A DNA stretch of 64,000 nucleotides from a phage, in sequence record PV357172.2, one strand, 5' to 3'. Below the pieces are notes generated by a model. That model did no database searches and was not told the DNA's origin. It was given only the letters and a program-made list of their open reading frames with translations. A program made the translations under genes and the position numbers. Below are positions 5,169 to 43,053 of this stretch, in pieces; within the stretch, counting starts at the first letter, position 1; the number at the start of each line of letters is the position of its first letter.

Positions 5169-5314
5169 GTATTTAAGGCAAAAGAAAAAGCCCATAAGTT
5201 ATTCAACTAAGGTCTTTAGTATTTAATTCTTTAGAATCATATAATATTATTGCAGCAACAACGTGCTAACCTTAAGTGCCCTGCAATTTTCCTCTAAAAA
5301 GTTAAAAAATTCGA

Positions 5315-5343
5315 TTGCTTGAATGCTAAATTCTCTGTATAAT
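5315..5343 (+). promoter_or_regulatory. sigma70-like early promoter
   Basis: TTGCTT 5315-5320, TATAAT 5338-5343. Confidence 0.6.
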
Positions 5344-5373
5344 ATATTTATAAATTTGAGAGAGGAATCAAAT

Positions 5374-6429
5374 ATGATTAAGACTGGTCTAGTAATTGGT
5401 AAGTTCGCACCATTAACGCGTGGTCATATTAACCTAATAAACACAGCAGCAACTATGTGTGAACGAGTTATTGTTGTAGTTAGTCATGATAATCGTTGGC
5501 TGGATAAGCAGAACACACGTGATCAGGAAGTATTACAGTTAAAGAATCGACTTCGTTGGTTAGAACAAACTTACGCGGATATTGAGCACATTTCGGTAGA
5601 GTACATTATTGAAGATGATATTCCTGAATATCCGAATGGTTGGCCGGAATATGCTAGAATCCTTAATGAAAATTACGGACATTTGCCTGAGATCACCGTT
5701 TTCTCTAGCGAACTAGACTATGATGCAGAATATAAGAAATATCTGCCGAAGTTTGGTCATTATATTGTAGATTCTGATCGGACTCGTGTTCCAATCTCAG
5801 CTACAATGATTCGTAATGATCTTATGAAGTATTGGGAGTTTCTTCCTAGCTTAGTTCGTAAAGATTACGTGCGTAAGGTTGTAATCATTGGGACTGAAAG
5901 CTCGGGAAAGACTACTTTAACAAAATACCTTGCGAAGCTATACAACACTTCGTGGGTAGAAGAATATGGCCGAACGTATTGTGAAGTTGATCTAGTTGGT
6001 AACGAAAATCTACTTACCAGTGAAGATTACAGTAAAATTGCGTTCAGACACAAAGAGCTAGAGTTTGAAGCAGAACGTACTGCAAATAAGATCATGTTTG
6101 TGGATACAAATGCTTTTATTACTGAGTTCTACCACAGACTTTATGAACATAGTAAGAACCCTGTGGTTACAGCAATTGCAAAAGTAGAACATTACGATTT
6201 AGTAATTGTTCTAGCGCCTACTGTCAAGTGGGTAGATGATGATTTACGTATTAACTCCGATCGTTCAATTACTTCTGAACTGTTCGAGCAGATGAAGAAA
6301 GAATTTCCAAATCAGTTCCCTGAAGGGCGTACTGTTTACATCGACTCTCCGGACTACAAAGTTCGTATGGACGAAGCAGTAAACGCAGTAGACTGGCTGA
6401 TTCATCACTTTAACGTTGGAGAGTTTTAA
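5374..6429 (+). CDS. nadR: NadR-like NMN adenylyltransferase / ribosylnicotinamide kinase
   Basis: N-terminal nucleotidyltransferase motif (GKFAPLTRGHINLI) plus C-terminal Walker A (GTESSGKTT); ATG 5374 after SD AGAGGAA. Confidence 0.7.
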   Translation: MIKTGLVIGKFAPLTRGHINLINTAATMCERVIVVVSHDNRWLDKQNTRDQEVLQLKNRLRWLEQTYADIEHISVEYIIEDDIPEYPNGWPEYARILNENYGHLPEITVFSSELDYDAEYKKYLPKFGHYIVDSDRTRVPISATMIRNDLMKYWEFLPSLVRKDYVRKVVIIGTESSGKTTLTKYLAKLYNTSWVEEYGRTYCEVDLVGNENLLTSEDYSKIAFRHKELEFEAERTANKIMFVDTNAFITEFYHRLYEHSKNPVVTAIAKVEHYDLVIVLAPTVKWVDDDLRINSDRSITSELFEQMKKEFPNQFPEGRTVYIDSPDYKVRMDEAVNAVDWLIHHFNVGEF

Positions 6430-6430
6430 T

Positions 6431-7108
6431 ATGACTAACTATCTCGTAAATGACTTTAAAAACTGGAAACCTCTGGAATATCTGTGGCTGCTCATAGCGG
6501 TTGTCTTCATTAGTTTAGCAAACTATAATGGTACAGCTCTAGATTGGGCTACTGCAATAACCAATGTGGTTTGTGTTATTCTGGTTGCAAAAGGACGTGT
6601 TTCCAACTATATTTGGGGCTTAGTGGGTGTTCTTACATATGGTATTACAGCTTTAAACGCAGATCTTTATGGTAACGCTGCACTAAACCTGCTATACTAC
6701 GTTCCTATGCAGTTTTATGGAATGTACTTATGGCATAAAAATAAACCAAGTAATCTGCCAGACGTTCCAACTAAGGTTCTGACTAAAGCTCAGGCTTTAT
6801 TAACTCTTGGGATTCTAGCAGTAGCTACTCTAGGCTATGGCAGCTTCCTCGCTACCACAGCAGATCCGTTCCCAATGCTCGATGCATTTACTGCGGTTGG
6901 TAGTGTAATTGCTATGTGGCTTATGGTCAAGCAGTATGCTGAACAATGGCTAATCTGGATTGCCATTAATATTGGTACTGTATACATTTGGTTTGTAACT
7001 GCTCAGTCTACAGGTGCTTCTTATGCAATCCTAGCAATGTGGCTGGTATTCTTTGGTAACTCTGTACTTGGAGCCTATAAAGGGTACTTTGTACGCGTTA
7101 ACAAATAA
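6431..7108 (+). CDS. pnuC: PnuC-like nicotinamide riboside transporter
   Basis: About 225-aa polytopic membrane protein immediately after the NadR-like gene, Trp-rich helices as in PnuC. Confidence 0.6.
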   Translation: MTNYLVNDFKNWKPLEYLWLLIAVVFISLANYNGTALDWATAITNVVCVILVAKGRVSNYIWGLVGVLTYGITALNADLYGNAALNLLYYVPMQFYGMYLWHKNKPSNLPDVPTKVLTKAQALLTLGILAVATLGYGSFLATTADPFPMLDAFTAVGSVIAMWLMVKQYAEQWLIWIAINIGTVYIWFVTAQSTGASYAILAMWLVFFGNSVLGAYKGYFVRVNK

Positions 7109-7115
7109 AATAGTT

Positions 7116-7138
7116 ATAGCCCTCAAAGCGAGGGCTAT
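7116..7138 (+). terminator. terminator-like hairpin
   Basis: ATAGCCCTC-AAAGC-GAGGGCTAT hairpin after the PnuC-like gene. Confidence 0.45.
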
Positions 7139-7155
7139 TATCCAGAAAATTTCAC

Positions 7156-7184
7156 TTGCTAAATGCCGAGATTTTCTGTATAAT
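7156..7184 (+). promoter_or_regulatory. sigma70-like early promoter
   Basis: TTGCTA 7156-7161, TATAAT 7179-7184. Confidence 0.6.
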
Positions 7185-7198
7185 ATATTTATAAATTC

Positions 7199-7290
7199 GG
7201 AAGATTAACCCTAATTGGTAAGGGAGCATCTTGCTAAGTTGCCAGTAGCTGTGGAAACACGGTGTATCGGTTCAAGTCCGATATCTTCCT
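7199..7290 (+). tRNA. tRNA-Ser (GCT), long variable arm
   Basis: Perfect acceptor GGAAGAT/ATCTTCC, anticodon loop TTGCTAA, T-loop TTCAAGT, encoded CCA. Confidence 0.75.
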
Positions 7291-7298
7291 CCAAATTT

Positions 7299-7373
7299 GG
7301 TTCTCAAGCTCATTTGGTATGAGCCGTCGCCTCATAAGCGAAAGGTAGGTAGGTTCGAATCCTCCGGGAGCCA
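7299..7373 (+). tRNA. tRNA-Met/fMet/Ile2 (CAT)
   Basis: D-stem GCTC/GAGC, anticodon loop CTCATAA, T-loop TTCGAAT, encoded CCA. Confidence 0.7.
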
Positions 7374-7393
7374 CCAGATAACTAGGAGACTTT

Positions 7394-7582
7394 ATGTCAC
7401 GCTTTCACGAAATTAAGCAAGAACTGGAAGAACTCGCCTGTCCTGAATGCTTTGGGACAGGTGAATGGAATGATGCTGAACCCGGGGATACGCGGTTTAA
7501 CACTTACGTTTGCACTCACTGTGAAGGTACTGGTGTAAACCCTCTTTACACTATTTCTCTTTTTGTAGGGGTTGCTAAATAA
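7394..7582 (+). CDS. small zinc-ribbon protein (CPEC...CTHCEG)
   Basis: 62-aa ORF with two CxxC pairs and AGGAG SD. Confidence 0.5.
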   Translation: MSRFHEIKQELEELACPECFGTGEWNDAEPGDTRFNTYVCTHCEGTGVNPLYTISLFVGVAK

Positions 7583-7588
7583 TGCACT

Positions 7589-7936
7589 TTGAAGATGATG
7601 AAAAAAGAAGCGTTCTACACTGTCCCAGCAATTAATCTGCTCGGTACTGTACTATTTCAGATTAAGTTCTACCTGCGAGACGACTACACTGAAGTGGTAA
7701 ACGCTATTGTACCTGAGTTCTTCGTAAATAATTTCCAAAAGGACTTTAAGTTCTTTATTGATGATGTTTACGATGGTGTGGTTGATCCGGCAGTAGCTCC
7801 AGCTATATACAATGTATTTAATTCTCTGCCAGATCTAGATTTTGATCTAGGACTTATTGAGTCTGGTGAGATTATCTGGGCACTTAATGTTCCAGTGACT
7901 GGATTCCCTGGTTGGCTGCAAGGTTACGAACTCTAA
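7589..7936 (+). CDS. hypothetical protein (115 aa)
   Basis: Track ORF; alternative start codon; no domain recognised. Confidence 0.45.
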   Translation: MKMMKKEAFYTVPAINLLGTVLFQIKFYLRDDYTEVVNAIVPEFFVNNFQKDFKFFIDDVYDGVVDPAVAPAIYNVFNSLPDLDFDLGLIESGEIIWALNVPVTGFPGWLQGYEL

Positions 7937-7944
7937 CAAAATTT

Positions 7945-8027
7945 GGATCTGTGGTGGAATTGGCAATACACACCATGCTTAAAACGTGGCGCTTAAATGA
8001 TTGAGGGTTCGAGCCCCTCCAGATCCA
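7945..8027 (+). tRNA. tRNA-Leu (TAA), long variable arm
   Basis: Acceptor GGATCTG/CAGATCC, anticodon loop CTTAAAA, T-arm GAGGG-TTCGAGC-CCCTC, encoded CCA. Confidence 0.7.
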
Positions 8028-8182
8028 CCAAATTAAGGAAGTAAAAATGAAATCTATTAAGAAAGCACTGCGTAAATTTATGTATTGTCGTTTTCATAGC
8101 ATCAAGGCTTCAACTAATGGTACTACTTACGATCGCTATGATCCTAAGTTTGGCTTACATTCTAAATAACTGGAGAAAACAA

Positions 8183-8389
8183 ATGGCTAATCCTGAAATT
8201 ACGGCACAACGCTTTATGCTGAAAGGAATTATTGCTGAAGCAGGCATGACAGAAGAAGTTGCAGATTTTCAAAAGCAATTCCTCAATATTCTCACTCAAG
8301 CCAAAGAGCTAGGAGAGAAAGAACATGGCGCGGCTATTATGGCAATCACATTGGTTGGGCTTGATCTGGCTGAAGAATCAGGAGTTTAA
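8183..8389 (+). CDS. hypothetical protein
   Basis: ATG 8183 preceded by GGAG; in frame with track ORF 8117-8389. Confidence 0.45.
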   Translation: MANPEITAQRFMLKGIIAEAGMTEEVADFQKQFLNILTQAKELGEKEHGAAIMAITLVGLDLAEESGV

Positions 8390-8419
8390 CTCCTCCAAGC
8401 AGAAATTTTAAAAATGTAC

Positions 8420-8449
8420 TTGCTTTTTACTTAAGATTTCTGCTATAAT
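8420..8449 (+). promoter_or_regulatory. sigma70-like early promoter
   Basis: TTGCTT 8420-8425, TATAAT 8444-8449. Confidence 0.55.
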
Positions 8450-8478
8450 AGTTATATAAGTTGATGAGAGGAATCAGA

Positions 8479-8754
8479 ATGTTAAAACGTTTTGCAGCAA
8501 CTGGTATTGAAAGCTCAGTATGTAAATCCTGGGGTGGTTGGGAAGGTGAGATCGAGTGGCTTTATTTCTACAATGTAGAACTTCTTCCAGAGATCAAAGC
8601 TCAATGTATTGAGGCTGGTATGGCTCCTGATGCTACGGCTGATGTTGAAATCAGCATGAATAAGCTAGAGGGTCGAGTAGTCACTGTTACTGATGAAGGT
8701 GAAGAGGTATTCGAACTTCCATTCACTTTGAAAGTCACTCCTTCATTTGATTAA
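8479..8754 (+). CDS. hypothetical protein
   Basis: ATG 8479 after conserved GATGAGAGG leader; in frame with track ORF. Confidence 0.5.
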   Translation: MLKRFAATGIESSVCKSWGGWEGEIEWLYFYNVELLPEIKAQCIEAGMAPDATADVEISMNKLEGRVVTVTDEGEEVFELPFTLKVTPSFD

Positions 8755-8785
8755 CTGATACAGCACTGAGCAAGTTCTTTAAAAT

Positions 8786-8819
8786 TTGACTTGCTCAGTA
8801 CCTTAAAACTTGGTATAAT
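8786..8819 (+). promoter_or_regulatory. sigma70-like early promoter
   Basis: TTGACT/TTGCTC 8786-8796, TATAAT 8814-8819. Confidence 0.55.
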
Positions 8820-8889
8820 AGTTATCTAATTTGGAAACATATTTAAAAGTATTCAAATACTAGTTTAAACACTTTTAAATGTACATCGT

Positions 8890-8963
8890 TGGCAGAATGG
8901 CTATTGTAGCGGTCTGTAAATCCGTGCCCTTCGGGATTGGTGGTTCGAATCTTACACGGCCCG
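8890..8963 (+). tRNA. tRNA-like element with Tyr-type anticodon loop (CTGTAAA); possible pseudogene
   Basis: GGTTCGAATC T-loop and CCA end are present but acceptor and T-stems do not pair canonically. Confidence 0.2.
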
Positions 8964-9068
8964 CCAAATTCTGTGTAGAGTTAAGTAAACCGGTAGCCAA
9001 CCAGCTATCATTGCTGACATCGAATTCAGCCACAGATACCATTTTCATTAATAACTGAGGAAATAGAT

Positions 9069-9254
9069 ATGACAACTCGTGCAATTGCTCGACTAGAAGC
9101 TGATCGTGATAATCTGATTAATAATATTAAGGTTCGTGGTAATATTATTAAGGCTCTGAAAGCTGAACTTCTTGAAGAACTTCAAGGTCAAGTAGAGCGT
9201 CGTGAAGCTCTAAAAGAGGTTGAGGAAGCTATCGAAAAACTCAAAGCTGAGTAA
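9069..9254 (+). CDS. small coiled-coil protein (61 aa)
   Basis: Track ORF with GAGGAAATAG SD-like sequence. Confidence 0.45.
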   Translation: MTTRAIARLEADRDNLINNIKVRGNIIKALKAELLEELQGQVERREALKEVEEAIEKLKAE

Positions 9255-9257
9255 ATT

Positions 9258-9839
9258 ATGCACGGAATATCCTTACCAATTCCAGGGTTTGAGGAGTACT
9301 TAGTAAGTTTGGATGGGTTAGTATTTAGTATCAAATCAAACAAAATACTAACCCCAATAACCAGTAATTACGGATACTTATCTATACGTCTCCATAAAAA
9401 TGGTCAACAGAGAAATACCGGTGTACATAGGATTTTAGCATGTGCATTTAAGAAATTACCAAGTCTAGACTCTGAACTAGAAGTTGACCATATTAACACA
9501 GACATTACTTATTGGGGTCTTAATAACTTACAAGTGCTCACAAAAGAGCAGCATCTAGAAAAGACTTTAAAAGATAAAGGATTTAGTAAACTAAACCATG
9601 ATAATTGTTGTAAGGATTGTGGTAAAGCTATTTCTTTAAAAGCTGAAAAATGTCAGGAGTGCTCTTCACATAAACCAAAAGATATCTCTATAACTAAAGA
9701 AATAATCGAGGTTACAGTAAGAGAGCTAGGCTGGTCAGGTGCAGGGAGAAAGTTAAGTTATTCAGATAATGGGTTGCGTAAAAGATACACTTCTTTAGGA
9801 GGCAATCCTAAAGAACTTAAAAAGTTAAAGGTACTATAG
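9258..9839 (+). CDS. HNH homing endonuclease
   Basis: LEVDHINTD...NNLQVLTKEQH HNH motif plus C-terminal Cys-rich region; stop codon overlaps the start of tRNA-Asp. Confidence 0.8.
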   Translation: MHGISLPIPGFEEYLVSLDGLVFSIKSNKILTPITSNYGYLSIRLHKNGQQRNTGVHRILACAFKKLPSLDSELEVDHINTDITYWGLNNLQVLTKEQHLEKTLKDKGFSKLNHDNCCKDCGKAISLKAEKCQECSSHKPKDISITKEIIEVTVRELGWSGAGRKLSYSDNGLRKRYTSLGGNPKELKKLKVL

Positions 9840-9901
9840 TCTAACGGTTAGGATACTCCCCTGTCACGGGAGAGGTAGGGTTTCGATTACCCTTAGTACC
9901 G
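9830..9901 (+). tRNA. tRNA-Asp (GTC)
   Basis: Perfect acceptor GGTACTA/TAGTACC, anticodon stem CTCCC/GGGAG, loop CTGTCAC, T-arm AGGGT-TTCGATT-ACCCT, CCA. Confidence 0.85.
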
Positions 9902-9910
9902 CCAAATTAT

Positions 9911-9984
9911 ACATCCATAGCTCAATTGGTTAGAGCTACCGCCTCTTAAGCGGTAGGTTCTAGGTTCAAGTCCTAGTGGGTGTA
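9911..9984 (+). tRNA. tRNA-Lys (CTT)
   Basis: D-stem GCTC/GAGC, anticodon stem ACCGC/GCGGT, loop CTCTTAA, T-arm CTAGG-TTCAAGT-CCTAG, CCA. Confidence 0.85.
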
Positions 9985-10114
9985 CCAAACATCAGAGCAG
10001 CGTGATGTACTGCAAAGACCCAAAGTCCGGGGTGGACTTCTTGATTCAAAGGAGCAGGCACTAATTATCATTCTAGCGTGGTGGAGAGGGGACACCAGCT
10101 TGCCGAGGGTAGAA

Positions 10115-10191
10115 GCTCGTTCGATTCGAGTGAAAGAATGGTTCTCGTAAATCCGCACAAGTGATAGCAGGTTCAAGTCCTGCCTAGATTG
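10115..10191 (+). other. two tRNA-like T-arm elements without canonical acceptor stems
   Basis: GCTCG-TTCGATT-CGAGT and GCAGG-TTCAAGT-CCTGC; no complementary 5' acceptor found. Confidence 0.2.
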
Positions 10192-10200
10192 ACTTATTAT

Positions 10201-10271
10201 GCGTTCGTAGTTAAAAGGTATAATTTTTGGTTGCCAACCAGAAGTTGAGGGTTCGATTCCCTCCGACCGCA
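10201..10271 (+). tRNA. tRNA-Gly (GCC)
   Basis: Anticodon loop TTGCCAA, T-arm GAGGG-TTCGATT-CCCTC, acceptor 6/7 paired, CCA. Confidence 0.75.
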
Positions 10272-10527
10272 CCAAATTTAGGTTTCTGCTTCCTAGAGAA
10301 CGGACTCCTAGATAAACAAGGCGATGAGTTTCCGGCCGGTTCTAGTCGCTGAAAATCCTCCCGACCAGGTAGGTGTAAGTAAATGAAAGTTTACTTATTG
10401 AGTAGGTTCCGATAGACCGGCGGGTCTATTCTGGCATTTAAGAGAGGTCTCGCAAACTTCTTTGTCAGCCGTGGGGTTGGTAGCCTCCAGGTGGCCTACA
10501 CAATAAGTAAATTTATTAAAAATTCAT

Positions 10528-31460: not shown

Positions 31461-32345
31461 ATGTATAACTTTAAAGATAAACTAAGACAAAATGCTGGTA
31501 AAACAAAACCTAAAGAGAACAATAATGTTCCTAATGCCAAAGTATTACCATTTCCAGAACTATCCCAAGAAGAAAAAGATAAGTTAGCATTTATGTTTGA
31601 TGCACTTATAGGGCTAAATGGACGTTTATATTCCTCTCTCAATATTAATGAGAAACGTTTAGTAGAGATGTTTTGTAAACGTTACCAAGTTACTTCAAAG
31701 GGCAATTCTTATAAAGAAGGTGAGAAAGCATTTACAGTCTTAAAGATTAGCGCATATGCACATCGTTTCTTAGTTTATGGGTTGCAAATGGAATACTTTA
31801 CTATCCCATCATTTAGCTCTTTCCATATCTTTGAAGATGAACGAATGAATATTGATGATCTCTACGGGGATACATACAAATACTCAGGAAGTCCATTCCA
31901 CGATGCATTAAGGAGTTACCCATCTAACTATTTACCCATTAGAGCATCTCAAGGTAAAGCTAGCATCTTTGCTGTATACTCAGGATCTAAAGCATCGGAT
32001 CTAGAAACTTATATATTTAAAGAGCGTAAATCTGTGCTTCCAGATGAAGCATTGTATAACAATCCATTGCTTCCAGAAAAAGAACCAGAAAAAATTGATG
32101 TAACCCCACCAATACCGTCTGACTCTCAGTATTTAATTTATGAGAAACAAGTTAAGTTATCCCTAGAAATTGGATTAGTTACACCGCTTGCTGCAGCATT
32201 CATAAATAGATATCTAGAAATTCCTGATGAGTTCCACACACGTTATAATACGAATATTCAGATAACGGATGAACTAATTGCGTTAGCAAAAGATACACCT
32301 ACAGATACTGAGGCGTATCAAAAAGCATACCAAGAGTTACTATAA
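31461..32345 (+). CDS. hypothetical protein (294 aa)
   Basis: Track ORF with GGGAG SD; followed by a hairpin at about 32355-32385. Confidence 0.55.
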   Translation: MYNFKDKLRQNAGKTKPKENNNVPNAKVLPFPELSQEEKDKLAFMFDALIGLNGRLYSSLNINEKRLVEMFCKRYQVTSKGNSYKEGEKAFTVLKISAYAHRFLVYGLQMEYFTIPSFSSFHIFEDERMNIDDLYGDTYKYSGSPFHDALRSYPSNYLPIRASQGKASIFAVYSGSKASDLETYIFKERKSVLPDEALYNNPLLPEKEPEKIDVTPPIPSDSQYLIYEKQVKLSLEIGLVTPLAAAFINRYLEIPDEFHTRYNTNIQITDELIALAKDTPTDTEAYQKAYQELL

Positions 32346-32792
32346 TACTCTGCATGTCTCGGTGCACAATACCTGTACCGAGACTCAAATACAAACTCTC
32401 GTTGACAGATAGCTAAATGTATGTTATCATAACTCTATGAGTTAATAGAATTAACCATTTAGAGTTGCCACACAGAAGGTGTGGTGGTTCAGTAATTTAA
32501 AATTACTAACTTGTAGCGGAGGATACGGAGCGACAGGACAAGTTAATAAGTAATTTAATATAAATTACTAGAAACATCACGAGACCTTCTGGCGGGGGGC
32601 AAAGCTCTATATGAGAACCCTGGGGGATCTTATATTTAAAATAAAAGTAAAACTTTTGACCACATAATTTACATTCAAGATGATACACCTGTTGCCGCTC
32701 ATCTGCTAGGATGGCACAACACTTTCTTCTAGACTCCTAAGTTTCTAGGAAATTGATAAGCACAAATTCTAGAGATCACACAAAAATATTCA

Positions 32793-33529
32793 TCGGATTT
32801 GCACATATTCTAGGGCAGTTTTCACTGTTCCTAGAAACTCCAGCAATAGGCGGTTAATACAGGGCGGTTATAGGGAGGGCGGTTATTTCTAGGAGACATT
32901 TTTTGAAAACACATTTCCAGAAATTACTGTCGGATTTGCACATTGTGTTTCTAGAAATTTATGGTCGGATTTGCACAAACGCCTAAGTTTTTAGGAACTC
33001 TTACTCTCCTGAAAATAGCAGCATTATTTCGGGCCGAAGGCCCATGATTGCCTGAGTTTTTAGAGCCACAAGAATTTTCACTTGTCAAGCTATTTTGCCC
33101 CATTTTGCTAATAAAATTTTACTTTTTCTGCACCTATCTCAAATTTCCCCAAATTATCTCAACTCTTCCCCAAAATCCCCGCAAATCAGGTGCTCCGCAC
33201 CAATCCTGCGCCTACTTCCTTCTAGTCCCAAAATTTCTCTCACTCTCTCATCCTCTCCTCAAACCTATACAATCACACACCCTCTCATCGAAGTCATAAA
33301 AATCTTGTCGGATTCGCACATCTCAACACATGTCGGATTTGCACATACTCTAGCTAATCCCACAGGATTCGAACGCAGTTCGTGATTGCTGGAGTTTTTG
33401 GGAAAATTCATTGTCGGATTTGCACACTATAAAAATTTTTCGGGTCGGATTTGCACACTACCAAAAATTGTCGGATTCGCACATACACGCCCACGCGTAA
33501 TCCATGGGGGCAAATGTCGGTTTTGCACA
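32793..33529. repeat. dispersed array of 10 copies of GTCGGATTTGCACA in non-coding DNA
   Basis: Copies near 32793, 32928, 32964, 33307, 33332, 33413, 33444, 33470, 33516 (two as GTCGGATTCGCACA, one GTCGGTTTTGCACA); irregular spacing. Confidence 0.8.
33100..33300 (+). repeat. about 200-nt pyrimidine-rich (C/T) tract with strand asymmetry
   Basis: Plus strand almost lacks G across this interval. Confidence 0.7.
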
Positions 33530-33559
33530 AAAGCGCAGGGCAATTGCCCTGCTCGCCTG

Positions 33560-33735
33560 AATGCGAATAAAAATAAGAATCATTCTCATTTAAAAAGTGG
33601 AATGCGAATGAGAATCATTATCATTTAGAAAACGGAATGAGAACTATTCAAGAAGTGAAATGATTCTCATTTAAAAAGTGGAGTGATTATCGATTAGCTA
33701 GTGAAATGCGAATGATAATGATTCGCATTTAAAAA
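33560..33735. repeat. tandem about 35-bp repeats with Fur-box-like palindromes
   Basis: Four to five units such as AATGCGAATGAGAATCATTATCATTTAGAAAACGG; GAGAATCATTATC matches 12 of 13 positions of the Fur consensus. Confidence 0.6.
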
Positions 33736-33762
33736 CGGAAGTGAGAAACACTGCTATTTAAG

Positions 33763-33872
33763 TTATCCACAGACTTATTAACAGCACGATTTGACTTGAC
33801 AGAATCCTAGCCATTTTGAGGCGTTATCCACAGACTTATCCCCAGGTTATTCTACTGTATAAATATACAGTA
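33763..33872. repeat. left arm of inverted repeat carrying DnaA boxes
   Basis: TTATCCACAGACTTAT twice (33763, 33824) followed by CTGTATAAATATACAG palindrome. Confidence 0.7.
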
Positions 33873-33987
33873 TTCCTATGCAGTGAATAATTCTAATATA
33901 GGCTTAAAACGTCCTGAGTGGTGGTACTAAAACAAAGGGGTATTTATCTGAAGGACTGAAAAACTGGGATCTGCTCCCCGCTTGTTA

Positions 33988-34182
33988 TCAGTCCGGTAAT
34001 TGATGCGTGATCTTCTCCTCCTCCCCGTAGGAATCCACCAAATGCTGATAATACCCATCGTTATCATAAATCACTTTATCATAATCGCCACGCTCGACCG
34101 CTTGCCGATTTTCCAGCGTATCAGGCACAAAGAAAGTATCAACGGTAACAGTAGTTTTAGTTACAACAATTTTATCACTCAT
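33988..34182 (-). CDS. hypothetical protein (64 aa)
   Basis: Minus-strand ORF in the IR-flanked cassette; Fur-like motif in its upstream region (34196-34216). Confidence 0.45.
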   Translation of the reverse strand: MSDKIVVTKTTVTVDTFFVPDTLENRQAVERGDYDKVIYDNDGYYQHLVDSYGEEEKITHQLPD

Positions 34183-34308
34183 AACGCCATCGCCCCTAGA
34201 ATGAGAATGATTATTATTACCATTACAAGCCCGTTACTAAATCGTAAACGCTGGGAATGTTTACCAGCGGTATTATTAGATTTATGGGATTGCGTTTTAC
34301 GCCACCAG

Positions 34309-34509
34309 CTATTCACGGTAGACACGCCAGCCGTCTAGCTTCCATTCTTCCCCCTTGCGAATATTGAAAAACCAATCATTAAAATTGTAACCATCTTCTG
34401 ACATGATCACGCCGTTTTCTTTCATGTACAAAAATTCATTGCTAGTAAAATATTGATTACTAACTTTAAAACCTTGTTTCATTTTTTCTAGTGCTTCATC
34501 TTTAGTCAT
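34309..34509 (-). CDS. small protein with DUF2829-like pattern (possible Tad2-like sponge)
   Basis: EALEKMKQGFKV...DW...EEW...GW pattern resembles DUF2829 proteins as I recall them; AGGTGG SD. Confidence 0.4.
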   Translation of the reverse strand: MTKDEALEKMKQGFKVSNQYFTSNEFLYMKENGVIMSEDGYNFNDWFFNIRKGEEWKLDGWRVYRE

Positions 34510-34850
34510 TGCGCCACCTTTCGAAACGCTGTTTCAATACTATCCGCAGTGGATTGAATATACGCGCCTTTCATTATCAGGCGCTCGGTACATACCTTGC
34601 GGAAAATATTAATAAAATCATCTTCGTTTTCTGCAATTAATGCTTCACCCATAACCTGAACGTCACAAGATGCAAAGGTCAAAAATTGAAACGCTAGTTC
34701 ACGGGCAACGACCGCATTAATTTTATAGTGCGCCTTGCCCTCATAAATATTAATAACGCCCTTATATTCAGGGGAAAGCTGATTTAAATAGTTTGCTAAT
34801 AATGCCGGACGGCAATTAGCAACAAAACGATTGCCCTCATAAATTACCAT
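34506..34850 (-). CDS. hypothetical protein (114 aa)
   Basis: ATG at 34850 with GGAG SD. Confidence 0.5.
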   Translation of the reverse strand: MVIYEGNRFVANCRPALLANYLNQLSPEYKGVINIYEGKAHYKINAVVARELAFQFLTFASCDVQVMGEALIAENEDDFINIFRKVCTERLIMKGAYIQSTADSIETAFRKVAQ

Positions 34851-34851
34851 T

Positions 34852-35064
34852 TTATAACACTCCACGAAAGGCCGCGTAAAAGGTGGCAAAATGTTTAACC
34901 GTCTCAGCGATCACGTTGCCCCGTTTATCGAATTTCTTTTCTGTAACACGAAAGGCGTTTTTGTTGCGTGCTACATATTCGATTTTACAATCTGGACGCT
35001 CGAACGTGTTAACGTCCACCAGCTTAAAGCCTTTCGAACGTGTAAGGGAAACGTTACGGATCAT
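34852..35064 (-). CDS. hypothetical basic protein (70 aa)
   Basis: AGGAG SD; translationally coupled. Confidence 0.5.
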   Translation of the reverse strand: MIRNVSLTRSKGFKLVDVNTFERPDCKIEYVARNKNAFRVTEKKFDKRGNVIAETVKHFATFYAAFRGVL

Positions 35065-35066
35065 TT

Positions 35067-35255
35067 TTATTCTCCTTTACTAGTCATGCAGCCCAGCAGA
35101 TAAGAAAAAACGGCGATACCCGCGCCAATAATAACCATTGGTTTTGTATTTACTAAACCACAATAGGAATCCTGAATACCATAAGCGGTGGCGAAAAGAG
35201 TCAGAATAGCGCCCAAGATACCTGCTAGAATAGCTCGAAAAATAACCATTTTCAT
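35067..35255 (-). CDS. small membrane protein (63 aa)
   Basis: ATG 35255 after TTTCTAGGAGAATGAAA; two hydrophobic helices. Confidence 0.45.
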   Translation of the reverse strand: MKMVIFRAILAGILGAILTLFATAYGIQDSYCGLVNTKPMVIIGAGIAVFSYLLGCMTSKGE

Positions 35256-35296
35256 TCTCCTAGAAATTAGAGGCGAAAGTAACGCCCAGTTATTGG

Positions 35297-35524
35297 TTAC
35301 ATTAAAACGATTTTGGCGGCTTGTTTTTTGGTGCAATGTTCCGCTTTCAATTCATCCAGCAAAAATCCAGCTGTTTGCTGATCAATCTTGTCATTATTGT
35401 AAAGCTCCTGAATGGTAACATAAGTTTTAGCAATCCCAAATTCAGAAACCATAACGCTTACAATAGCGGGAACGGATACCCATTCCATACCATTAAAAAT
35501 TGCAGAAGATGATGAATGTACCAT
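35297..35524 (-). CDS. hypothetical protein (75 aa)
   Basis: AGGAGG SD after TTTCTAGG motif; first gene of the minus-strand cassette. Confidence 0.5.
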   Translation of the reverse strand: MVHSSSSAIFNGMEWVSVPAIVSVMVSEFGIAKTYVTIQELYNNDKIDQQTAGFLLDELKAEHCTKKQAAKIVLM

Positions 35525-35646
35525 TTTAACGCCTCCTAGAAATCAGGGAAAATTTTCAATCCACCGTTTTGGTGTAAAGGCATTATAACAAAAAAGGCCA
35601 CCATAAAAGGCGACCTTTACAAAACTTTACATTAGGTTAATTATTA

Positions 35647-35760
35647 CTCGCTTTCGGTGCTAACGGTAAAAGTAGAAATATCAATACCTTTCACCATTTC
35701 CAGCATTGCCGCCACCTGGCCGCCGCGTTGGGTCTTTACTTTAATATTACCCCACAGCGT
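35647..35760 (-). pseudogene. 38-codon gene remnant (3' end only)
   Basis: Open frame between stops encoding ...TLWGNIKVKTQRGGQVAAMLEMVKGIDISTFTVSTESE with no start or RBS; a hairpin and T-run follow on the minus strand. Confidence 0.3.
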
Positions 35761-35825
35761 TTAGCTCGTTAGAAAGCGATTTAGGCCGCTTATTTTGGGC
35801 ATCATTATAGTATGCTTCCCATTTA

Positions 35826-35935
35826 CCCTGTATATTTATACAGTGGAATAACCTGTGGATAAGTCTGTGTAAAAGTGCTGTAAAGCCTTCCTATTGTGTC
35901 AATCAAATTTACAAAATGTATAAACCTGTGGATAA
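35826..35935. repeat. right arm of inverted repeat carrying DnaA boxes
   Basis: Reverse complement of the left arm: CTGTATATTTATACAG palindrome and TGTGGATAA twice (35854, 35927). Confidence 0.7.
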
Positions 35936-36126
35936 CTTAAATGATAGTGGTTCTCACTAACTAATTTATACAGTTATTATATAACAAAATATAGTTAGTT
36001 GGCTAATAGGATTTTAAAGTGATTATGAGTCTGCTAAGTAAACCTGAAAAACTCATTAGGTAGTCTGCTAATGATTTTGATATAATATAATAGAGATTAA
36101 ACTAATAACATAAGGAAACAATAACA

Positions 36127-36645
36127 ATGGGTCTATTTAAAGATATAGATTATTCGCTTGCTAATGATAACTTTTATTATGATGAAACATCCCCATCATT
36201 TCTAAGATGGAAAGTACAGAAAGGTAATAGTAAGGTGGGGGATATTGCAGGGCATTATAGTAACACAGGTTACTATCGAGTAAAGTTAGCAGGCGAACAA
36301 TACGCAGTGCATAGAATAATATGGGTATTATTTAATGGTGAGATTGATAGCAATCTAACAATCGATCATAATGATCGTAACCGTGCTAATAATAACATTA
36401 ATAATCTTCGCTTAGTAGATCATAAGCAGAATACGAATAACAAGAAAGATTATAAGCGTGCTAATAAGTTGCCTAAGCATATCTATTATAATGGTTCTAG
36501 AGTTGATAATAACGGAAGAAACTATTTGCGCGCTATAGTTAAAGATCCTACTAGTAACAAAAGTGTTAGTAAATCAGGTTATGATTTACAAGAGTTATTA
36601 TTATGGGTAGAAACTAAAAAAGCTGAATTTGGGATTGTCAATTAA
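36127..36645 (+). CDS. HNH homing endonuclease
   Basis: HRIIWVLFNGEIDSNLTIDHNDRN...NNLRLVDHKQN HNH motif. Confidence 0.8.
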   Translation: MGLFKDIDYSLANDNFYYDETSPSFLRWKVQKGNSKVGDIAGHYSNTGYYRVKLAGEQYAVHRIIWVLFNGEIDSNLTIDHNDRNRANNNINNLRLVDHKQNTNNKKDYKRANKLPKHIYYNGSRVDNNGRNYLRAIVKDPTSNKSVSKSGYDLQELLLWVETKKAEFGIVN

Positions 36646-37033: not shown

Positions 37034-37375
37034 ATGATTGAGCTAACAAAAGATATTGATTTAGAAACTGTGCTAGATAATCTTTACTATGATGAAACTA
37101 GTCCCAGTTGCCTACGGTGGAAAGTATCCCGCCCCGGTTGCGCCCTTCATGGGGTAGCAGGTACTAAAAGAAAGGATGGTTACTGGTCTGTACAGCTCAA
37201 TAAAGAGCGTTACCTAGCGCATCGTATCGTGTGGTTATTATTTAATTATAAAATAGATAGCAAACTAGTAATTGATCATATTGATCGTAACCCTAGTAAT
37301 AATTTTATTGATAACTTACGGTTAGTAACTCAAGCCGAAAACAACCAAAATAAGGGAGGCTATAGAAAGGCGTAA
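37034..37375 (+). CDS. HNH homing endonuclease (short paralog)
   Basis: HRIVWLLFNYKIDSKLVIDHIDRN...DNLRLVTQAEN; upstream leader similar to that of 36127. Confidence 0.75.
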   Translation: MIELTKDIDLETVLDNLYYDETSPSCLRWKVSRPGCALHGVAGTKRKDGYWSVQLNKERYLAHRIVWLLFNYKIDSKLVIDHIDRNPSNNFIDNLRLVTQAENNQNKGGYRKA

Positions 37376-41616: not shown

Positions 41617-42351
41617 ATGAATCAAGTTAAAACGAATATTACCCGTAATTTCCCGCATATTTCCCGCGTCATGATTTGGGATCTTGATGGCACTATCGTT
41701 AATTCATTCCATCGTGTCGCGCCTTGCTTTGATAGCGACGGGAATTTAAATTTAAATAAGTATAAAAATGAGGCTTGCAAACATGATTTAATAATGCAAG
41801 ATACTTTATTGCCTTTGGTGGAATATATGCGCCAATGCATGAATGACGCAAATACTTTAAACATTATTTGCACCGCTCGACTGATGAGCAAATCAGACTA
41901 TTATTATTTGCGTAAACAAGGATTGCGCGGGCGTGGTGATAGTAATATCCGTGTATTTTCCCGCGATACACTGCATAAATATTTTGAGGCTGATAAGGTT
42001 AGCGAAATATACCACAGCAAAGACGCAGTTTATAAATCGTATTATTTTGAGCTATTCAAACAACTATATCCGAACGCTGATTTTACAATGATTGATGATC
42101 ATAAAGGTGTATTATCAGCGGCAGCGTCATACGGATTTAAAACGCTGGACGCGCAAGCCGTTAATGATATTCTATCAATCGGCGTGGCATTGATAGGCGG
42201 AACCTTTATTGATGAATCTCTCGATGATGATAATGATTATCAGTTCCTAGCGGACCGATTGAAATTATGTTGGGAAAGTATGACCGAGGAAGAACGCGCA
42301 GAATATAGTTGCAGCCCGCAACAATATATTGAGAAATTAAAAGTTGCGTAA
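41617..42351 (+). CDS. dmp: HAD-superfamily phosphatase, Dmp-like 5'-deoxyribonucleotidase (244 aa)
   Basis: HAD motif I DLDGT and motif IV IDDH; same length as T5 Dmp as I recall it. Confidence 0.6.
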   Translation: MNQVKTNITRNFPHISRVMIWDLDGTIVNSFHRVAPCFDSDGNLNLNKYKNEACKHDLIMQDTLLPLVEYMRQCMNDANTLNIICTARLMSKSDYYYLRKQGLRGRGDSNIRVFSRDTLHKYFEADKVSEIYHSKDAVYKSYYFELFKQLYPNADFTMIDDHKGVLSAAASYGFKTLDAQAVNDILSIGVALIGGTFIDESLDDDNDYQFLADRLKLCWESMTEEERAEYSCSPQQYIEKLKVA

Positions 42352-42513
42352 TAATTAAAGTTGAAATAGTCACGGTGTGTAATGATAACATGCCGTGACT
42401 ATTAGCTTGCTAAGTACCGGGCGGTAATGAGACTCATTCTCATCTGGGGGGCCACTGCACCCACCCACGCGTACGTAATCCAAAGAATTTGGCAAAAGTC
42501 ATTTTAGTGCTAA

Positions 42514-43053
42514 TTAACTGTTTAATTGGGCAACGTCTGGTATACTTCCTTTGAACATCTCCTGTATTGCAAAGTCACCATGAAATGTCCTTCTTAGTAA
42601 ATTTGCATAATTTACGGCATCTTCTAATCCGCTATAGGGAAAGTACTTAGTAGTACCCCTTATCAGCCCCTGTTTATCATGTAATCTTACCATCCACTTC
42701 TGAAGTTCTTTATGCCATGTAACATTTAGATAGCCTGATGATGCTCTTGAGATTCTGCCATTATGATTATTCTCTGTAATTGAAGCCTCTCTTAAATTTG
42801 ACCATCTATTATTTAGTTTATTCCTATCTATGTGGTCTACACATTCCTCTGGCCATCTATTCTCCATAATAACAAAAGCTACTTGATGTGCATAAGCTTT
42901 AAACCCTCGATACTTAAGCTGCCTATATCCCCTATTTAAAGTACCTGCTTCTTTACCCTTACGATTGCCTCTTTTCCAGGTAAAAACTCCGGTTTCGGGA
43001 TCATAAGCAAATACTTCTTGTATTTCCTGTATGTTTAAATTATTCTTCATCAC
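42514..43053 (-). CDS. HNH homing endonuclease
   Basis: HQVAFVIMENRWPEECVDHIDRNKLNNRWSNLRE HNH motif. Confidence 0.75.
   Translation of the reverse strand: MMKNNLNIQEIQEVFAYDPETGVFTWKRGNRKGKEAGTLNRGYRQLKYRGFKAYAHQVAFVIMENRWPEECVDHIDRNKLNNRWSNLREASITENNHNGRISRASSGYLNVTWHKELQKWMVRLHDKQGLIRGTTKYFPYSGLEDAVNYANLLRRTFHGDFAIQEMFKGSIPDVAQLNS

What the first reader, a model, noticed from the sequence alone, without database searches (positions are those of the whole stretch)
33763..35935. Inverted repeats with DnaA boxes flank a 2-kb minus-strand gene cassette
TTATCCACAGACTTAT (a perfect DnaA box plus extension) occurs twice on the left and twice as reverse complement on the right, each side also carrying a CTGTATAAATATACAG-type palindrome. 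The roughly 45-bp arms enclose the only minus-strand operon in the first 42 kb (five small genes plus a gene remnant). This could be a replication origin or injection-stop element, or the scar of an inversion or mobile insertion.
Basis: seen in the sequence. Interest (0 to 1): 0.65.

Follow-up and report, generated by a model that had tools for sequence, protein, structure and literature searches.

The report
T5 injection-stop inverted repeats, already described
The repeats are real, but they are the already-described 131-bp inverted repeats with DnaA boxes that bracket one of the first-injected operons of phage T5 and its relatives; the palindrome in each repeat also matches the binding site of the host SOS repressor LexA, a link found in none of the papers that could be searched.

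Summary
[quoted passage not shown] The finding lies in the terminal-repeat (first-step-transfer, pre-early) DNA.

The two arms (33740-33872 and 35826-35958) are orthologues of T5 elements already annotated as IRD'-spacer-IRC' and IRC-spacer-IRD. The first lies inside the annotated injection stop signal. Their DnaA boxes were noted in 1987, and Davison (2020) compared them in 25 phages. The finding is therefore real, far beyond chance, and already known. Its function is still untested.

What this analysis adds:
- The 20-bp palindrome in each arm matches the LexA operator consensus at or above the level of the strongest E. coli operators.
- The DnaA-box plus LexA-type-box module is conserved in Klebsiella, Pectobacterium, Proteus and Vibrio relatives.
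- The left arm is the most conserved segment of the whole pre-early region (93.7%, against about 90% for A1, A2 and dmp).
- The arms do not co-evolve, which argues for protein-binding sites and against DNA pairing.
- The cassette has the same orientation in every close relative but is inverted in the Klebsiella- and Pectobacterium-phage lineages.

Origin and mobile-element readings are not supported. The best reading is paired landing pads for host proteins, tied to the injection pause.

The parts
33740..33872 (+). Left arm, the orthologue of T5 IRC'-spacer-IRD' on the injection-stop side. In order: palindrome AGTGAGAAACACT (33740-33752); DnaA pair 1, TTATCCACA (33763-33771) and TTATTAACA (33775-33783); conserved TTGAC (33791-33801); DnaA pair 2, TTATCCACA (33824-33832) and TTATCCCCA (33836-33844); LexA-type box TACTGTATAAATATACAGTA (33853-33872).
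   Evidence: Sequence; repeats; aligns to the annotated IRC', IRD' and palindrome D of AY587007; most conserved segment of the pre-early region, 93.7% mean identity in 27/27 relatives.
35826..35958 (-). Right arm, the orthologue of T5 IRC-spacer-IRD. All parts are on the minus strand: LexA-type box (35826-35845, core CTGTATATTTATACAG at 35828-35843); DnaA boxes TTATCCACA (35854-35862), TTTTACACA (35866-35874) and TTATCCACA (35927-35935); variant box TTATACATT (35915-35923); TTGAC (35898-35902); AGTGAGAACCACT (35946-35958).
   Evidence: aligns to the annotated IRC and IRD of AY587007; present in 27/27 relatives at 82% mean identity.
33873..33975 (+). Inner flank of the left arm. It shows weaker similarity to the inner flank of the right arm and lies just beyond the 3' end of the operon.
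   Evidence: Flank alignments. The query built to mimic a flipped junction aligned about 95 nt past the box in T5.
35720..35825 (-). Inner flank of the right arm, related to the left inner flank. It lies between the arm and the T5.011 remnant.
33988..34182 (-). Cassette gene, 64 aa, T5.017-like (80% identity), phrog_6973, function unknown.
34309..34509 (-). Cassette gene, 66 aa, sitting where T5 has T5.016. phrog_3474; weak Tad2-like Pfam match below the curated cutoff.
34506..34850 (-). Cassette gene, 114 aa, T5.015 in AY543070 numbering (95% identity), phrog_4379.
34852..35064 (-). Cassette gene, 70 aa, T5.014 in AY543070 numbering (97% identity). phrog_4227, annotated as an endonuclease that nicks abasic sites made by host Ung.
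35067..35249 (-). Cassette gene, 59-60 aa, T5.013-like small membrane protein (two transmembrane domains per the T5 annotation).
35297..35524 (-). Cassette gene, 75 aa, T5.012-like (73% identity), phrog_5145.
35647..35718 (-). Remnant: the last 25 codons of a T5.011-like gene. The 1-kb gene present in T5 is deleted here.
   Evidence: tblastn, 76% identity over residues 312-336.
35593..35618 (-). Terminator-like hairpin followed by a TATAAT-containing stretch, corresponding to T5's terminator and its putative pre-early promoter T5P5 upstream of gene 012.
   Evidence: T5 annotation.
32784..33739 (+). Outer part of the injection-stop region: nine GTCGGATTTGCACA direct repeats, all in one orientation, then AT-rich palindromic repeats (33560-33739) that include Fur-box-like TGAGAATCATTATCA.
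   Evidence: T5 annotation of direct repeats C and D and of the injection stop signal.

Best explanation
These are the T5-family IRD'-spacer-IRC' and IRC-spacer-IRD elements. They are two inverted copies of a non-coding module of about 131 bp that bracket the second pre-early operon inside the terminal repeat, which is the DNA that enters the cell first.

What is shown:
- The orthology to the annotated T5 elements.
- The motif content of each copy: two tandem pairs of DnaA boxes 3 bp apart, and a LexA operator at consensus level at the end facing the cassette.
- Conservation stronger than that of the neighbouring essential genes.
- Independent evolution of the two copies.
- No dependence on the direction of the enclosed operon.

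What is inferred: each copy is a landing pad for host proteins. A short DnaA oligomer would sit on the tandem boxes and a LexA dimer on the palindrome. The copy next to the injection-stop repeats would be the essential one. It would take part in holding or pausing the incoming DNA after the first 8% has entered, possibly through membrane-associated DnaA as Davison (2020) proposed. The second copy would be an auxiliary partner that could be drawn together with the first to loop out the operon. [quoted passage not shown]

It is not an origin, not a programmed invertible switch and not a mobile insertion.
For: Identity with the known elements:
- The window region is 91.7% identical to T5 5258-10282.
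- The arms align base for base with the annotated IRC', IRD', direct repeat B, palindrome D, IRC and IRD of AY587007, and the left arm lies inside AY543070's injection stop signal.
- The literature describes the same 131-bp repeats, 8 DnaA boxes in pairs 3 bp apart, a constant spacer and a variable distance between the arms.

Support for protein-binding sites:
- Both arms are present in all 29 distinct relatives, with inner distances of 1573-4043 bp.
- Identity between left and right arms is the same within a genome (72.0%) as between genomes (71.6%). Columns conserved in both arms coincide with the DnaA boxes, the palindrome, AGTGAGAA.CACT and TTGAC.
- The left arm is the most conserved segment of the region: 93.7% against 89.7% for A1, 89.7% for A2 and 90.9% for dmp.

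Support for a LexA operator:
- The left box has 1 mismatch to the 20-nt consensus.
- Position-weight-matrix scores are 25.5 and 21.5 bits, the top two in the window; the next best is 14.9.
- All 30 left arms score 23.1-25.5 bits, against 12.5-23.2 for E. coli operators recalled from memory.

Depth and distribution:
- A DnaA box followed by a LexA-type box sits at the same place in Klebsiella, Pectobacterium, Proteus and Vibrio relatives whose A2 protein is only 36-66% identical.
- The composite motif gives 60 stretches in IMG/VR but only 8 in 596 Gb of bacterial genomes, about the chance level.
- The arms persist where the enclosed operon is inverted.
Against: - No binding of DnaA or LexA to these sites has been shown. 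The injection-stop function of the region has never been tested.
- A protein complex on DNA that is already inside the cell does not obviously stop further entry.
- The right arm lies about 3 kb from the stop point and is partly or wholly absent in some lineages (the L040/L041 right arms).
- T5 plates on recA1 laboratory strains (my own knowledge, not tested here), so LexA cleavage cannot be required for growth.
- The position-weight matrix was built from operators recalled from memory.
Confidence: 0.45

Rival explanations
1. The arms are transcriptional control elements or insulators for the pre-early operon. LexA and DnaA bound to them would repress a promoter or block RNA polymerase. This could keep early-gene transcription from reading antisense into the operon, or make operon expression depend on the SOS or replication state of the host.
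For: - The LexA-type box is of operator quality.
- The right arm lies upstream of the operon between divergent pre-early promoters. The left arm lies between convergent transcription units: the operon ends at 33988 and the early gene T5.018 ends at 32345.
- Weak promoter-like hexamers overlap the boxes: TATACA-16-AATAAT at 33864-33891 and TTAACA-16-CAGAAT at 33778-33805.
- The operon encodes a DNA-nicking toxin-like protein.
Against: - Promoter-like sites in the region are no more frequent than in shuffled sequence (9 found, 10.7 expected), and the candidates are not conserved in most right arms.
- The experimentally mapped promoter of gene 011 lies outside the arm.
- The arms stay in place when the operon, with its promoter and terminator, is inverted in the Klebsiella-type and My1 lineages.
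- The more conserved copy is the one downstream of the operon.
Confidence: 0.25
2. The region is a DnaA-dependent replication origin. The DnaA-box clusters would act together with the neighbouring iteron-like direct repeats and AT-rich repeats.
For: - A cluster of consensus DnaA boxes in tandem pairs.
- Nine same-orientation GTCGGATTTGCACA repeats and AT-rich palindromic repeats lie next to the left arm. This layout resembles plasmid and P1-type iteron origins (my own knowledge).
Against: - T5 origins were mapped near the centre of the genome, and the replication genes are not yet in the cell during the first-step-transfer period (Davison's text).
- No marked AT-rich trough lies next to the boxes: GC is 32-37% against about 39% around.
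- The right arm has no repeats of that kind.
- The element lies in a terminal repeat, so it is present twice per genome.
Confidence: 0.05
3. The arms are recombination substrates. The cassette would be an invertible or mobile segment, and the arms would exist because of, or for, that rearrangement.
For: - The 011-017 block is inverted, with both strand and gene order reversed, in Pectobacterium My1. The evidence there is two homologues, with E-values of 8e-15 and 2e-34.
- It is also inverted in Klebsiella-type phages. There the T5.011 homologue has E = 8e-41, and a weak T5.015 match points the same way. Arms are retained on both sides.
- The spacer sequences of some right arms resemble left arms, which suggests occasional exchange.
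Against: - There is no recombinase, invertase or transposase in or next to the cassette; the neighbouring gene is an HNH homing endonuclease.
- Orientation is identical in all 28 close genomes, and 0 of 561 matching records span a flipped junction.
- The arms are only about 72-77% identical to each other and are not homogenised.
- The left arm is under stronger constraint than the coding genes, which a passive scar would not be.
- No target-site duplication can be read at the outer edges.
- The inner flanks do not show a clean swap in the inverted lineage.
Confidence: 0.05

Closest known systems
T5 inverted repeats IRC/IRD and IRD'/IRC' (Repeat Regions 2 and 3; injection stop signal). Sources: Heusterspreute 1987, Wang 2005 (AY587007 annotation), Davison 2020 bioRxiv 10.1101/866236.
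   Same: Orthologous sequence, the same position in the terminal repeat, the same four pairs of DnaA boxes 3 bp apart, the same 61-bp spacing between pairs, the same palindrome D, and the same bracketing of genes 011-017.
   Different: - Here gene 011 is reduced to a 25-codon remnant and gene 016 is replaced by another small ORF, so the inner distance is about 2 kb rather than 3.2 kb.
- All four box pairs are intact here, whereas T5 has lost one box.
- The LexA-operator reading of palindrome D and the inversion in other genera do not appear in the Davison text that could be searched.
Chromosomal DnaA-box clusters of E. coli (oriC, datA)
   Same: Consensus R-type boxes (TTATCCACA) in closely spaced, same-orientation arrays that could support cooperative DnaA binding.
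   Different: - Spacing is 3 bp (12-bp period) rather than the 2 bp of the oriC arrays (my own knowledge).
- There is no recognisable unwinding element.
- There is no sequence similarity to any E. coli genome.
- The combination with a LexA-type box occurs in bacterial genomes only at about the chance level.
LexA operators (SOS boxes) of Gammaproteobacteria
   Same: A CTGT-N8-ACAG palindrome with an AT-rich centre. The left box differs from TACTGTATATATATACAGTA at one central position, and the central four bases vary between phages while the outer bases stay fixed.
   Different: It is not demonstrably placed over a promoter, it lies in a strictly virulent phage, and binding is untested.
Invertible DNA segments (Hin/Gin/Cin type)
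   Same: Inverted repeats flank a 2-4 kb gene block that is found in both orientations across the family.
   Different: There is no invertase gene, the arms are long and only about 75% alike, and the orientation is fixed within each lineage.

Membership tests
[quoted passage not shown] | Sequence orthology to the annotated T5 elements | tested here: met
   The left arm is 93% identical over 144 nt to L002 2236-2379, which holds the annotated IRC', direct repeat B, IRD' and palindrome D. The right arm aligns to L002 5551-5681, which holds IRD and IRC.
[quoted passage not shown] | Position: one copy at the inner end of the terminal repeat within the injection stop signal, the other upstream of the 011-017 operon | tested here: met
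   Synteny with T5: T5.018, injection stop signal, left arm, genes 017 to 012, 011 remnant, right arm, hegG, 008, 007, A2, A1, dmp.
[quoted passage not shown] | Four pairs of DnaA or DnaA-like boxes, the two boxes of a pair 3 bp apart, with constant spacing between the pairs of one arm | tested here: met
   Pairs at 33763/33775, 33824/33836, 35935/35923 (- strand) and 35874/35862 (- strand). The two pairs of an arm start 61 bp apart in both arms.
Injection stop signal, as a function | Acts in cis to halt DNA transfer after about 8% of the genome | not testable with these tools
   Only position and annotation support it. The literature says experiments are lacking.
DnaA box (R-type) | 9-mer TTATCCACA, or TTWTNCACA in the relaxed form | tested here: met
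   Four perfect TTATCCACA plus one TTTTACACA in the arms. The window holds 5 perfect boxes against 0.79 expected.
DnaA box (R-type) | Bound by DnaA | not testable with these tools
   No binding data were found.
LexA operator (SOS box) | CTGT-N8-ACAG palindrome close to TACTGTATATATATACAGTA | tested here: met
   33853-33872 has 1 mismatch in 20. Position-weight-matrix scores are 25.5 and 21.5 bits, against 12.5-23.2 for recalled E. coli operators. The box is conserved in 30 of 30 left arms.
LexA operator (SOS box) | Overlaps or adjoins a promoter that it represses | tested here: inconclusive
   Only weak, non-conserved promoter-like hexamers overlap the boxes.
LexA operator (SOS box) | Bound by LexA | not testable with these tools
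   No data. No paper in the searchable library links the T5 injection stop signal with LexA.
DnaA-dependent replication origin | AT-rich unwinding element next to the DnaA boxes | tested here: inconclusive
   GC is 32-37% next to the left arm, with no distinct trough and no 13-mer-type repeats. AT-rich palindromic repeats do lie at 33560-33739.
DnaA-dependent replication origin | Replication initiates there | not testable with these tools
   Literature cited places T5 origins near the genome centre.
Site-specific invertible segment | Recombinase encoded in or beside the segment | tested here: not met
   The six cassette proteins match PHROG families of unknown function plus one nicking endonuclease. 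The neighbouring gene is an HNH endonuclease.
Site-specific invertible segment | Both orientations present among closely related genomes or within a population | tested here: not met
   All 28 close genomes have one orientation, and 0 of 561 records span a flipped junction. Within-population heterogeneity could not be tested.
Insertion sequence or transposon | Transposase gene plus target-site duplication outside the terminal inverted repeats | tested here: not met
   No transposase. The outer flanks...AAACGGA on the left and AACTAAT... on the right, are not a direct repeat.

The most novel reading that the evidence does not exclude
The arms are composite landing pads for two host global regulators: DnaA on the tandem boxes and LexA on a better-than-chromosomal operator. 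Fur-like boxes in the adjacent injection-stop repeats may add a third. On this reading the pad is an ancient cis-element, found only in phages, that T5-like viruses use to hold or organise the first-entering DNA. A similar DnaA-pair, LexA-box, DnaA-pair composite recurs in early-looking intergenic regions of unrelated uncultivated phages. Two-step DNA delivery would then depend on host DnaA and LexA, which is directly testable with host mutants and with phages whose boxes have been scrambled.
Probability: 0.3. Interest if true: 0.65.

Novelty: already known. Interest (0 to 1): 0.3.

Why it matters
How T5 stops and restarts genome injection has been an open question since the 1960s, and papers up to 2026 still call the mechanism poorly understood. 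The finding itself only rediscovers elements that have been annotated since 2005 and discussed since 1987.

The comparison made here sharpens what is worth testing:
- The arm on the injection-stop side is more conserved than the essential A1 and A2 genes.
- It carries a consensus-level LexA operator next to the DnaA boxes.
- That combination is conserved across genera and is found in phages, not in bacterial genomes.

This gives two defined host proteins and about 60 bp of DNA to mutate.

Tried and rejected
- Rfam scan of 32800-36400 at E up to 1: nothing, so there is no known structured RNA.
- Similarity of the arm to E. coli genomes: none, so it was not captured from the host.
- Sigma-70 promoter scan: 9 sites against 10.7 expected, so the arms cannot be called promoters.
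- Concerted evolution or compensatory change between the arms: none. Within-genome and between-genome identities are equal. This argues against a cruciform or arm-pairing function.
- A search for flipped cassettes among close relatives, using a query built to represent the flipped junction: 0 of 561 records. The Klebsiella-type phages, meant as a positive control, were too divergent to register.
- A clean swap of the inner flanks in the inverted Klebsiella-type lineage was expected. The flank identities were ambiguous, so no breakpoint is claimed.
- Literature linking T5 or Tequintavirus with LexA: only irrelevant hits.
- Davison's 2015 review could not be fetched. Heusterspreute 1987 and Wang 2005 were not fetched and did not surface in the full-text searches. 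Prior mention of LexA there cannot be excluded.
- A search for host-factor screens implicating dnaA in T5 growth gave nothing useful.
- Removal of LexA by SOS induction as the trigger for second-step transfer was considered and set aside, because T5 grows on recA1 strains (my own knowledge).
Full report
**What is there**

The stated repeats exist.
- The 16-mer TTATCCACAGACTTAT occurs exactly at 33763 and 33824 on the + strand. It occurs with two mismatches each at 35859-35874 and 35920-35935 on the - strand. That is 4 matches against 0.07 expected.
- The perfect DnaA 9-mer TTATCCACA occurs five times in the 64-kb window against 0.79 expected. Four of the five are in the arms, two per side.
- CTGTAT-N4-ATACAG occurs only twice in the window, once per arm, against 0.01 expected.
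- The repeat finder reports two adjacent inverted blocks: 33740-33778 / 35920-35958 (39 nt, 85%) and 33796-33870 / 35828-35902 (75 nt, 77%).

Together these form one composite arm of about 131-133 bp on each side. Weaker similarity continues about 95-110 bp further towards the cassette.

Between the arms lie six small minus-strand genes and the last 25 codons of a seventh. This is the only minus-strand coding block of ORFs of at least 80 aa before about 42.5 kb.

**Where it is**

[quoted passage not shown] Window 33000-36800 matches T5 positions 10282-5258 at 91.7% identity.

That region is the left terminal repeat, the first-step-transfer DNA that enters the cell first. The gene order matches T5: T5.018, injection stop signal, genes 017 to 012, a remnant of 011, hegG, 008, 007, A2, A1, dmp.

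The T5 record AY587007 already annotates these features:
- inverted repeats C/C' (39 nt) and D/D' (41 nt);
- direct repeat B (two copies 61 bp apart);
- palindrome D.

The window's arms align to them base for base. The left arm lies inside the injection stop signal annotated in AY543070.

**What is already published**

Davison's 2020 preprint describes exactly this pair as IRC-spacer-IRD and IRD'-spacer-IRC'.
- It traces the DnaA boxes back to a 1987 paper.
- It compares 25 T5-like phages and notes eight boxes in pairs 3 bp apart, a constant spacer and a variable distance between the arms.
- It proposes that membrane-bound DnaA binds them to stop injection.
- It argues against an origin, because T5 origins map near the genome centre.

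Papers from 2023 and 2026 state that no experiment has tested this and that the mechanism remains poorly understood. The finding is therefore a rediscovery of a described element whose function is hypothesised but unproven.

**Comparative analysis**

I anchored on the A2 protein and fetched 40 loci from IMG/VR. I also fetched annotated regions from Proteus, Vibrio, Klebsiella and Pectobacterium phages.

*Presence and orientation.* Both arms are present, in the same relative orientation, in all 29 distinct genomes from the first set. Inner distances range from 1573 to 4043 bp.

*Independent evolution.* Over the 28 closest genomes:
- left arms are 92.5% identical to each other;
- right arms are 84.2% identical to each other;
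- a left arm is no more similar to its own right arm (72.0%) than to a foreign one (71.6%).

So there is no concerted evolution and no compensatory change. Columns conserved in both arms coincide with discrete motifs: AGTGAGAA.CACT, ATTTAAG-TTATCCACA, TTGAC, and TTATC.ACAGACTTATCCACAGGTTAT.C.ACTGTAT..ATACAG. This pattern fits protein-binding sites and argues against a need for the arms to pair with each other.

*Strength of constraint.* Measured against the window, the left arm is the most conserved segment of the whole pre-early region.

| Segment | Mean identity to the window |
|---|---|
| Left arm | 93.7% (minimum 91.0%, 27 of 27 genomes) |
| dmp | 90.9% |
| A1 | 89.7% |
| A2 | 89.7% |
| Right arm | 82.0% |
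| Neighbouring non-coding repeats (33560-33739) | 80.4% |

**The palindrome looks like a LexA operator**

- The left palindrome TACTGTATAAATATACAGTA (33853-33872) differs from the 20-nt LexA consensus TACTGTATATATATACAGTA at one central position.
- I built a position weight matrix from 25 E. coli operators that I recalled from memory. It is a lead, not a curated test. The two arms score 25.5 and 21.5 bits, the two best sites in the window; the next scores 14.9.
- All 30 left arms score 23.1-25.5 bits and the right arms 16.8-25.5. The training operators score 12.5-23.2.
- The outer CTGTAT/ATACAG bases are fixed, while the central four bases vary (AAAT, ATTT, ATCC and others). That is the pattern expected for LexA recognition.
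- Davison's text contains no mention of LexA or SOS. No paper in the searchable library links the T5 stop signal with LexA. The 1987, 2005 and 2015 papers could not be read, so I cannot exclude an earlier mention.

**Depth of conservation**

In phages whose A2 protein is only 36-66% identical, TTATCCACA boxes followed by a CTGTAT-N4-ATACAG box sit at the same place, the distal end of the second pre-early operon. In several of them a second copy sits at the proximal end. The phages are:
- Proteus phage Stubb;
- Vibrio phages phi 3, D30 and Javier;
- Klebsiella-type phages;
- Pectobacterium phage My1.

The left arm of Stubb aligns over its whole length, including AGTGAGAAACACT.

The composite pattern TTATCCACA-N0-14-CTGTATNNNNATACAG gives 60 stretches in IMG/VR. 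It gives only 8 in 596 Gb of bacterial genomes, which is about my estimate of the chance level. The arm has no similarity to any E. coli genome. The combination is therefore found in phages, not in bacterial genomes.

**Orientation of the cassette**

- All 28 distinct close genomes (27 fetched loci plus the window), and by annotation the Proteus and Vibrio phages, have the T5 orientation.
- A query built to represent a flipped junction matched 561 phage records. None spanned the junction.
- In Pectobacterium My1, the homologues of genes 017 (E = 8e-15) and 011 (E = 2e-34) lie on the A2 strand and in reversed order between two complete modules.
- In Klebsiella-type phages, the 011 homologue (E = 8e-41), and weakly a 015 homologue, are likewise reversed.

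The block has therefore inverted at least once in the family's history while the arms stayed in place. I looked for a clean swap of the inner flanks as a signature of the breakpoint, and the result was ambiguous. There is no recombinase or transposase; the cassette proteins belong to PHROG families of unknown function, plus one annotated as an Ung-dependent nicking endonuclease.

The inversion shows that the arms can recombine and that their function does not depend on the direction of the enclosed operon. Fixed orientation within lineages, about 72-77% identity between arms and strong constraint on the left arm all argue against a programmed switch or a passive scar.

**Other readings**

*Origin.* Tandem DnaA boxes next to nine same-orientation GTCGGATTTGCACA repeats and AT-rich repeats do resemble an iteron origin. 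Against this, published mapping places T5 origins centrally, there is no distinct AT-rich trough, and the right arm has no such neighbours.

*Transcriptional control or roadblock.* This remains a serious rival, because the LexA-type box is of operator quality. However, promoter-like sites are not enriched, the candidates are not conserved, and the arms are indifferent to operon orientation.

*Structured RNA.* No Rfam family matches the region.

**Verdict**

The injection-stop option matches the literature. Inversion is supported only on an evolutionary scale. The origin and mobile-insertion options are not supported.
- The element is already known.
- The best-supported mechanism is that each arm is a landing pad for host DnaA and LexA, with the copy on the injection-stop side being the essential one. 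Binding is inferred from sequence only, and the link to the injection pause rests on position and on an untested published model.
- The LexA reading, the family-wide conservation and the lineage-specific inversion are modest additions that make the question more testable.

Noticed in passing
window 33560-33739 (for example 33609-33623 TGAGAATCATTATCA and 33713-33727), 34202-34216, and 42228-42242: The AT-rich palindromic repeats of the injection-stop region resemble Fur boxes (consensus TGATAATnATTATCA). There are 5 sites with up to 2 mismatches in the window, against about 0.6 in shuffles. One of them, at 42228 inside the dmp gene, is a perfect match, and it is conserved in relatives L003, L008 and L040. 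Fur-like sites also occur in the stop region of T5 and of Proteus phage Stubb, but not in the Vibrio phages. T5 uses FhuA as its receptor, and FhuA is regulated by Fur.
   Followed up: partly
window 32784-33532: The nine same-orientation GTCGGATTTGCACA direct repeats (T5 'direct repeat D') contain ATTTGCACA or TTTTGCACA. These match the relaxed DnaA box TTWTNCACA at 8 or 9 of 9 positions, so the stop region may carry a further array of weak DnaA sites.
   Followed up: partly
L095 6464-6527 (IMG/VR 3300001351_000173); the same motif occurs in L064, L069 and L078. Related composites occur in L070, L082, L085, L100, L103, L071, L079, L101, L066 and L092.: Uncultivated phage contigs with no A1, A2 or dmp in the fetched stretch carry the same kind of composite. 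In L095 a LexA-type box is flanked on each side by a tandem pair of perfect DnaA boxes. It lies between an endolysin/terminase/portal block and an early-looking promoter. A 59-nt stretch nearby matches the genome ends of Pseudomonas Bruynoghevirus phages. In L082 and L100 the composite is preceded by the same TGAGAATCATTCTCA palindrome seen in the T5 stop region.
   Followed up: partly
window 34309-34509 (-): The 66-aa ORF that sits where T5 has T5.016 gives a weak Pfam match to the Thoeris anti-defence Tad2-like domain (PF11195, E = 0.004, 18 bits, below the cutoff of 25). It also belongs to phrog_3474. It may be an anti-defence gene in the first-injected DNA.
   Followed up: no
window 36127-36645 and 37034-37375 (+); also 42514-43053 (-): Several HNH homing-endonuclease genes lie around the pre-early region. 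hegG sits directly outside the right arm, and a 52%-identical paralogue lies 400 bp further on. The presence of hegG varies among relatives.
   Followed up: no
window about 42350-42600: After dmp, the leftmost T5 gene, the window runs straight into genes that are not part of the T5 left end. The terminal repeat therefore appears to be collapsed to one copy in this assembly. In virion DNA each arm would then be present twice.
   Followed up: no
window 33075-33374: A stretch of about 300 bp in the outer stop region has a very strong strand bias (GC skew -0.5 to -0.7), with CT-rich short repeats such as TCTCTCACTCTCTCATC.
   Followed up: no
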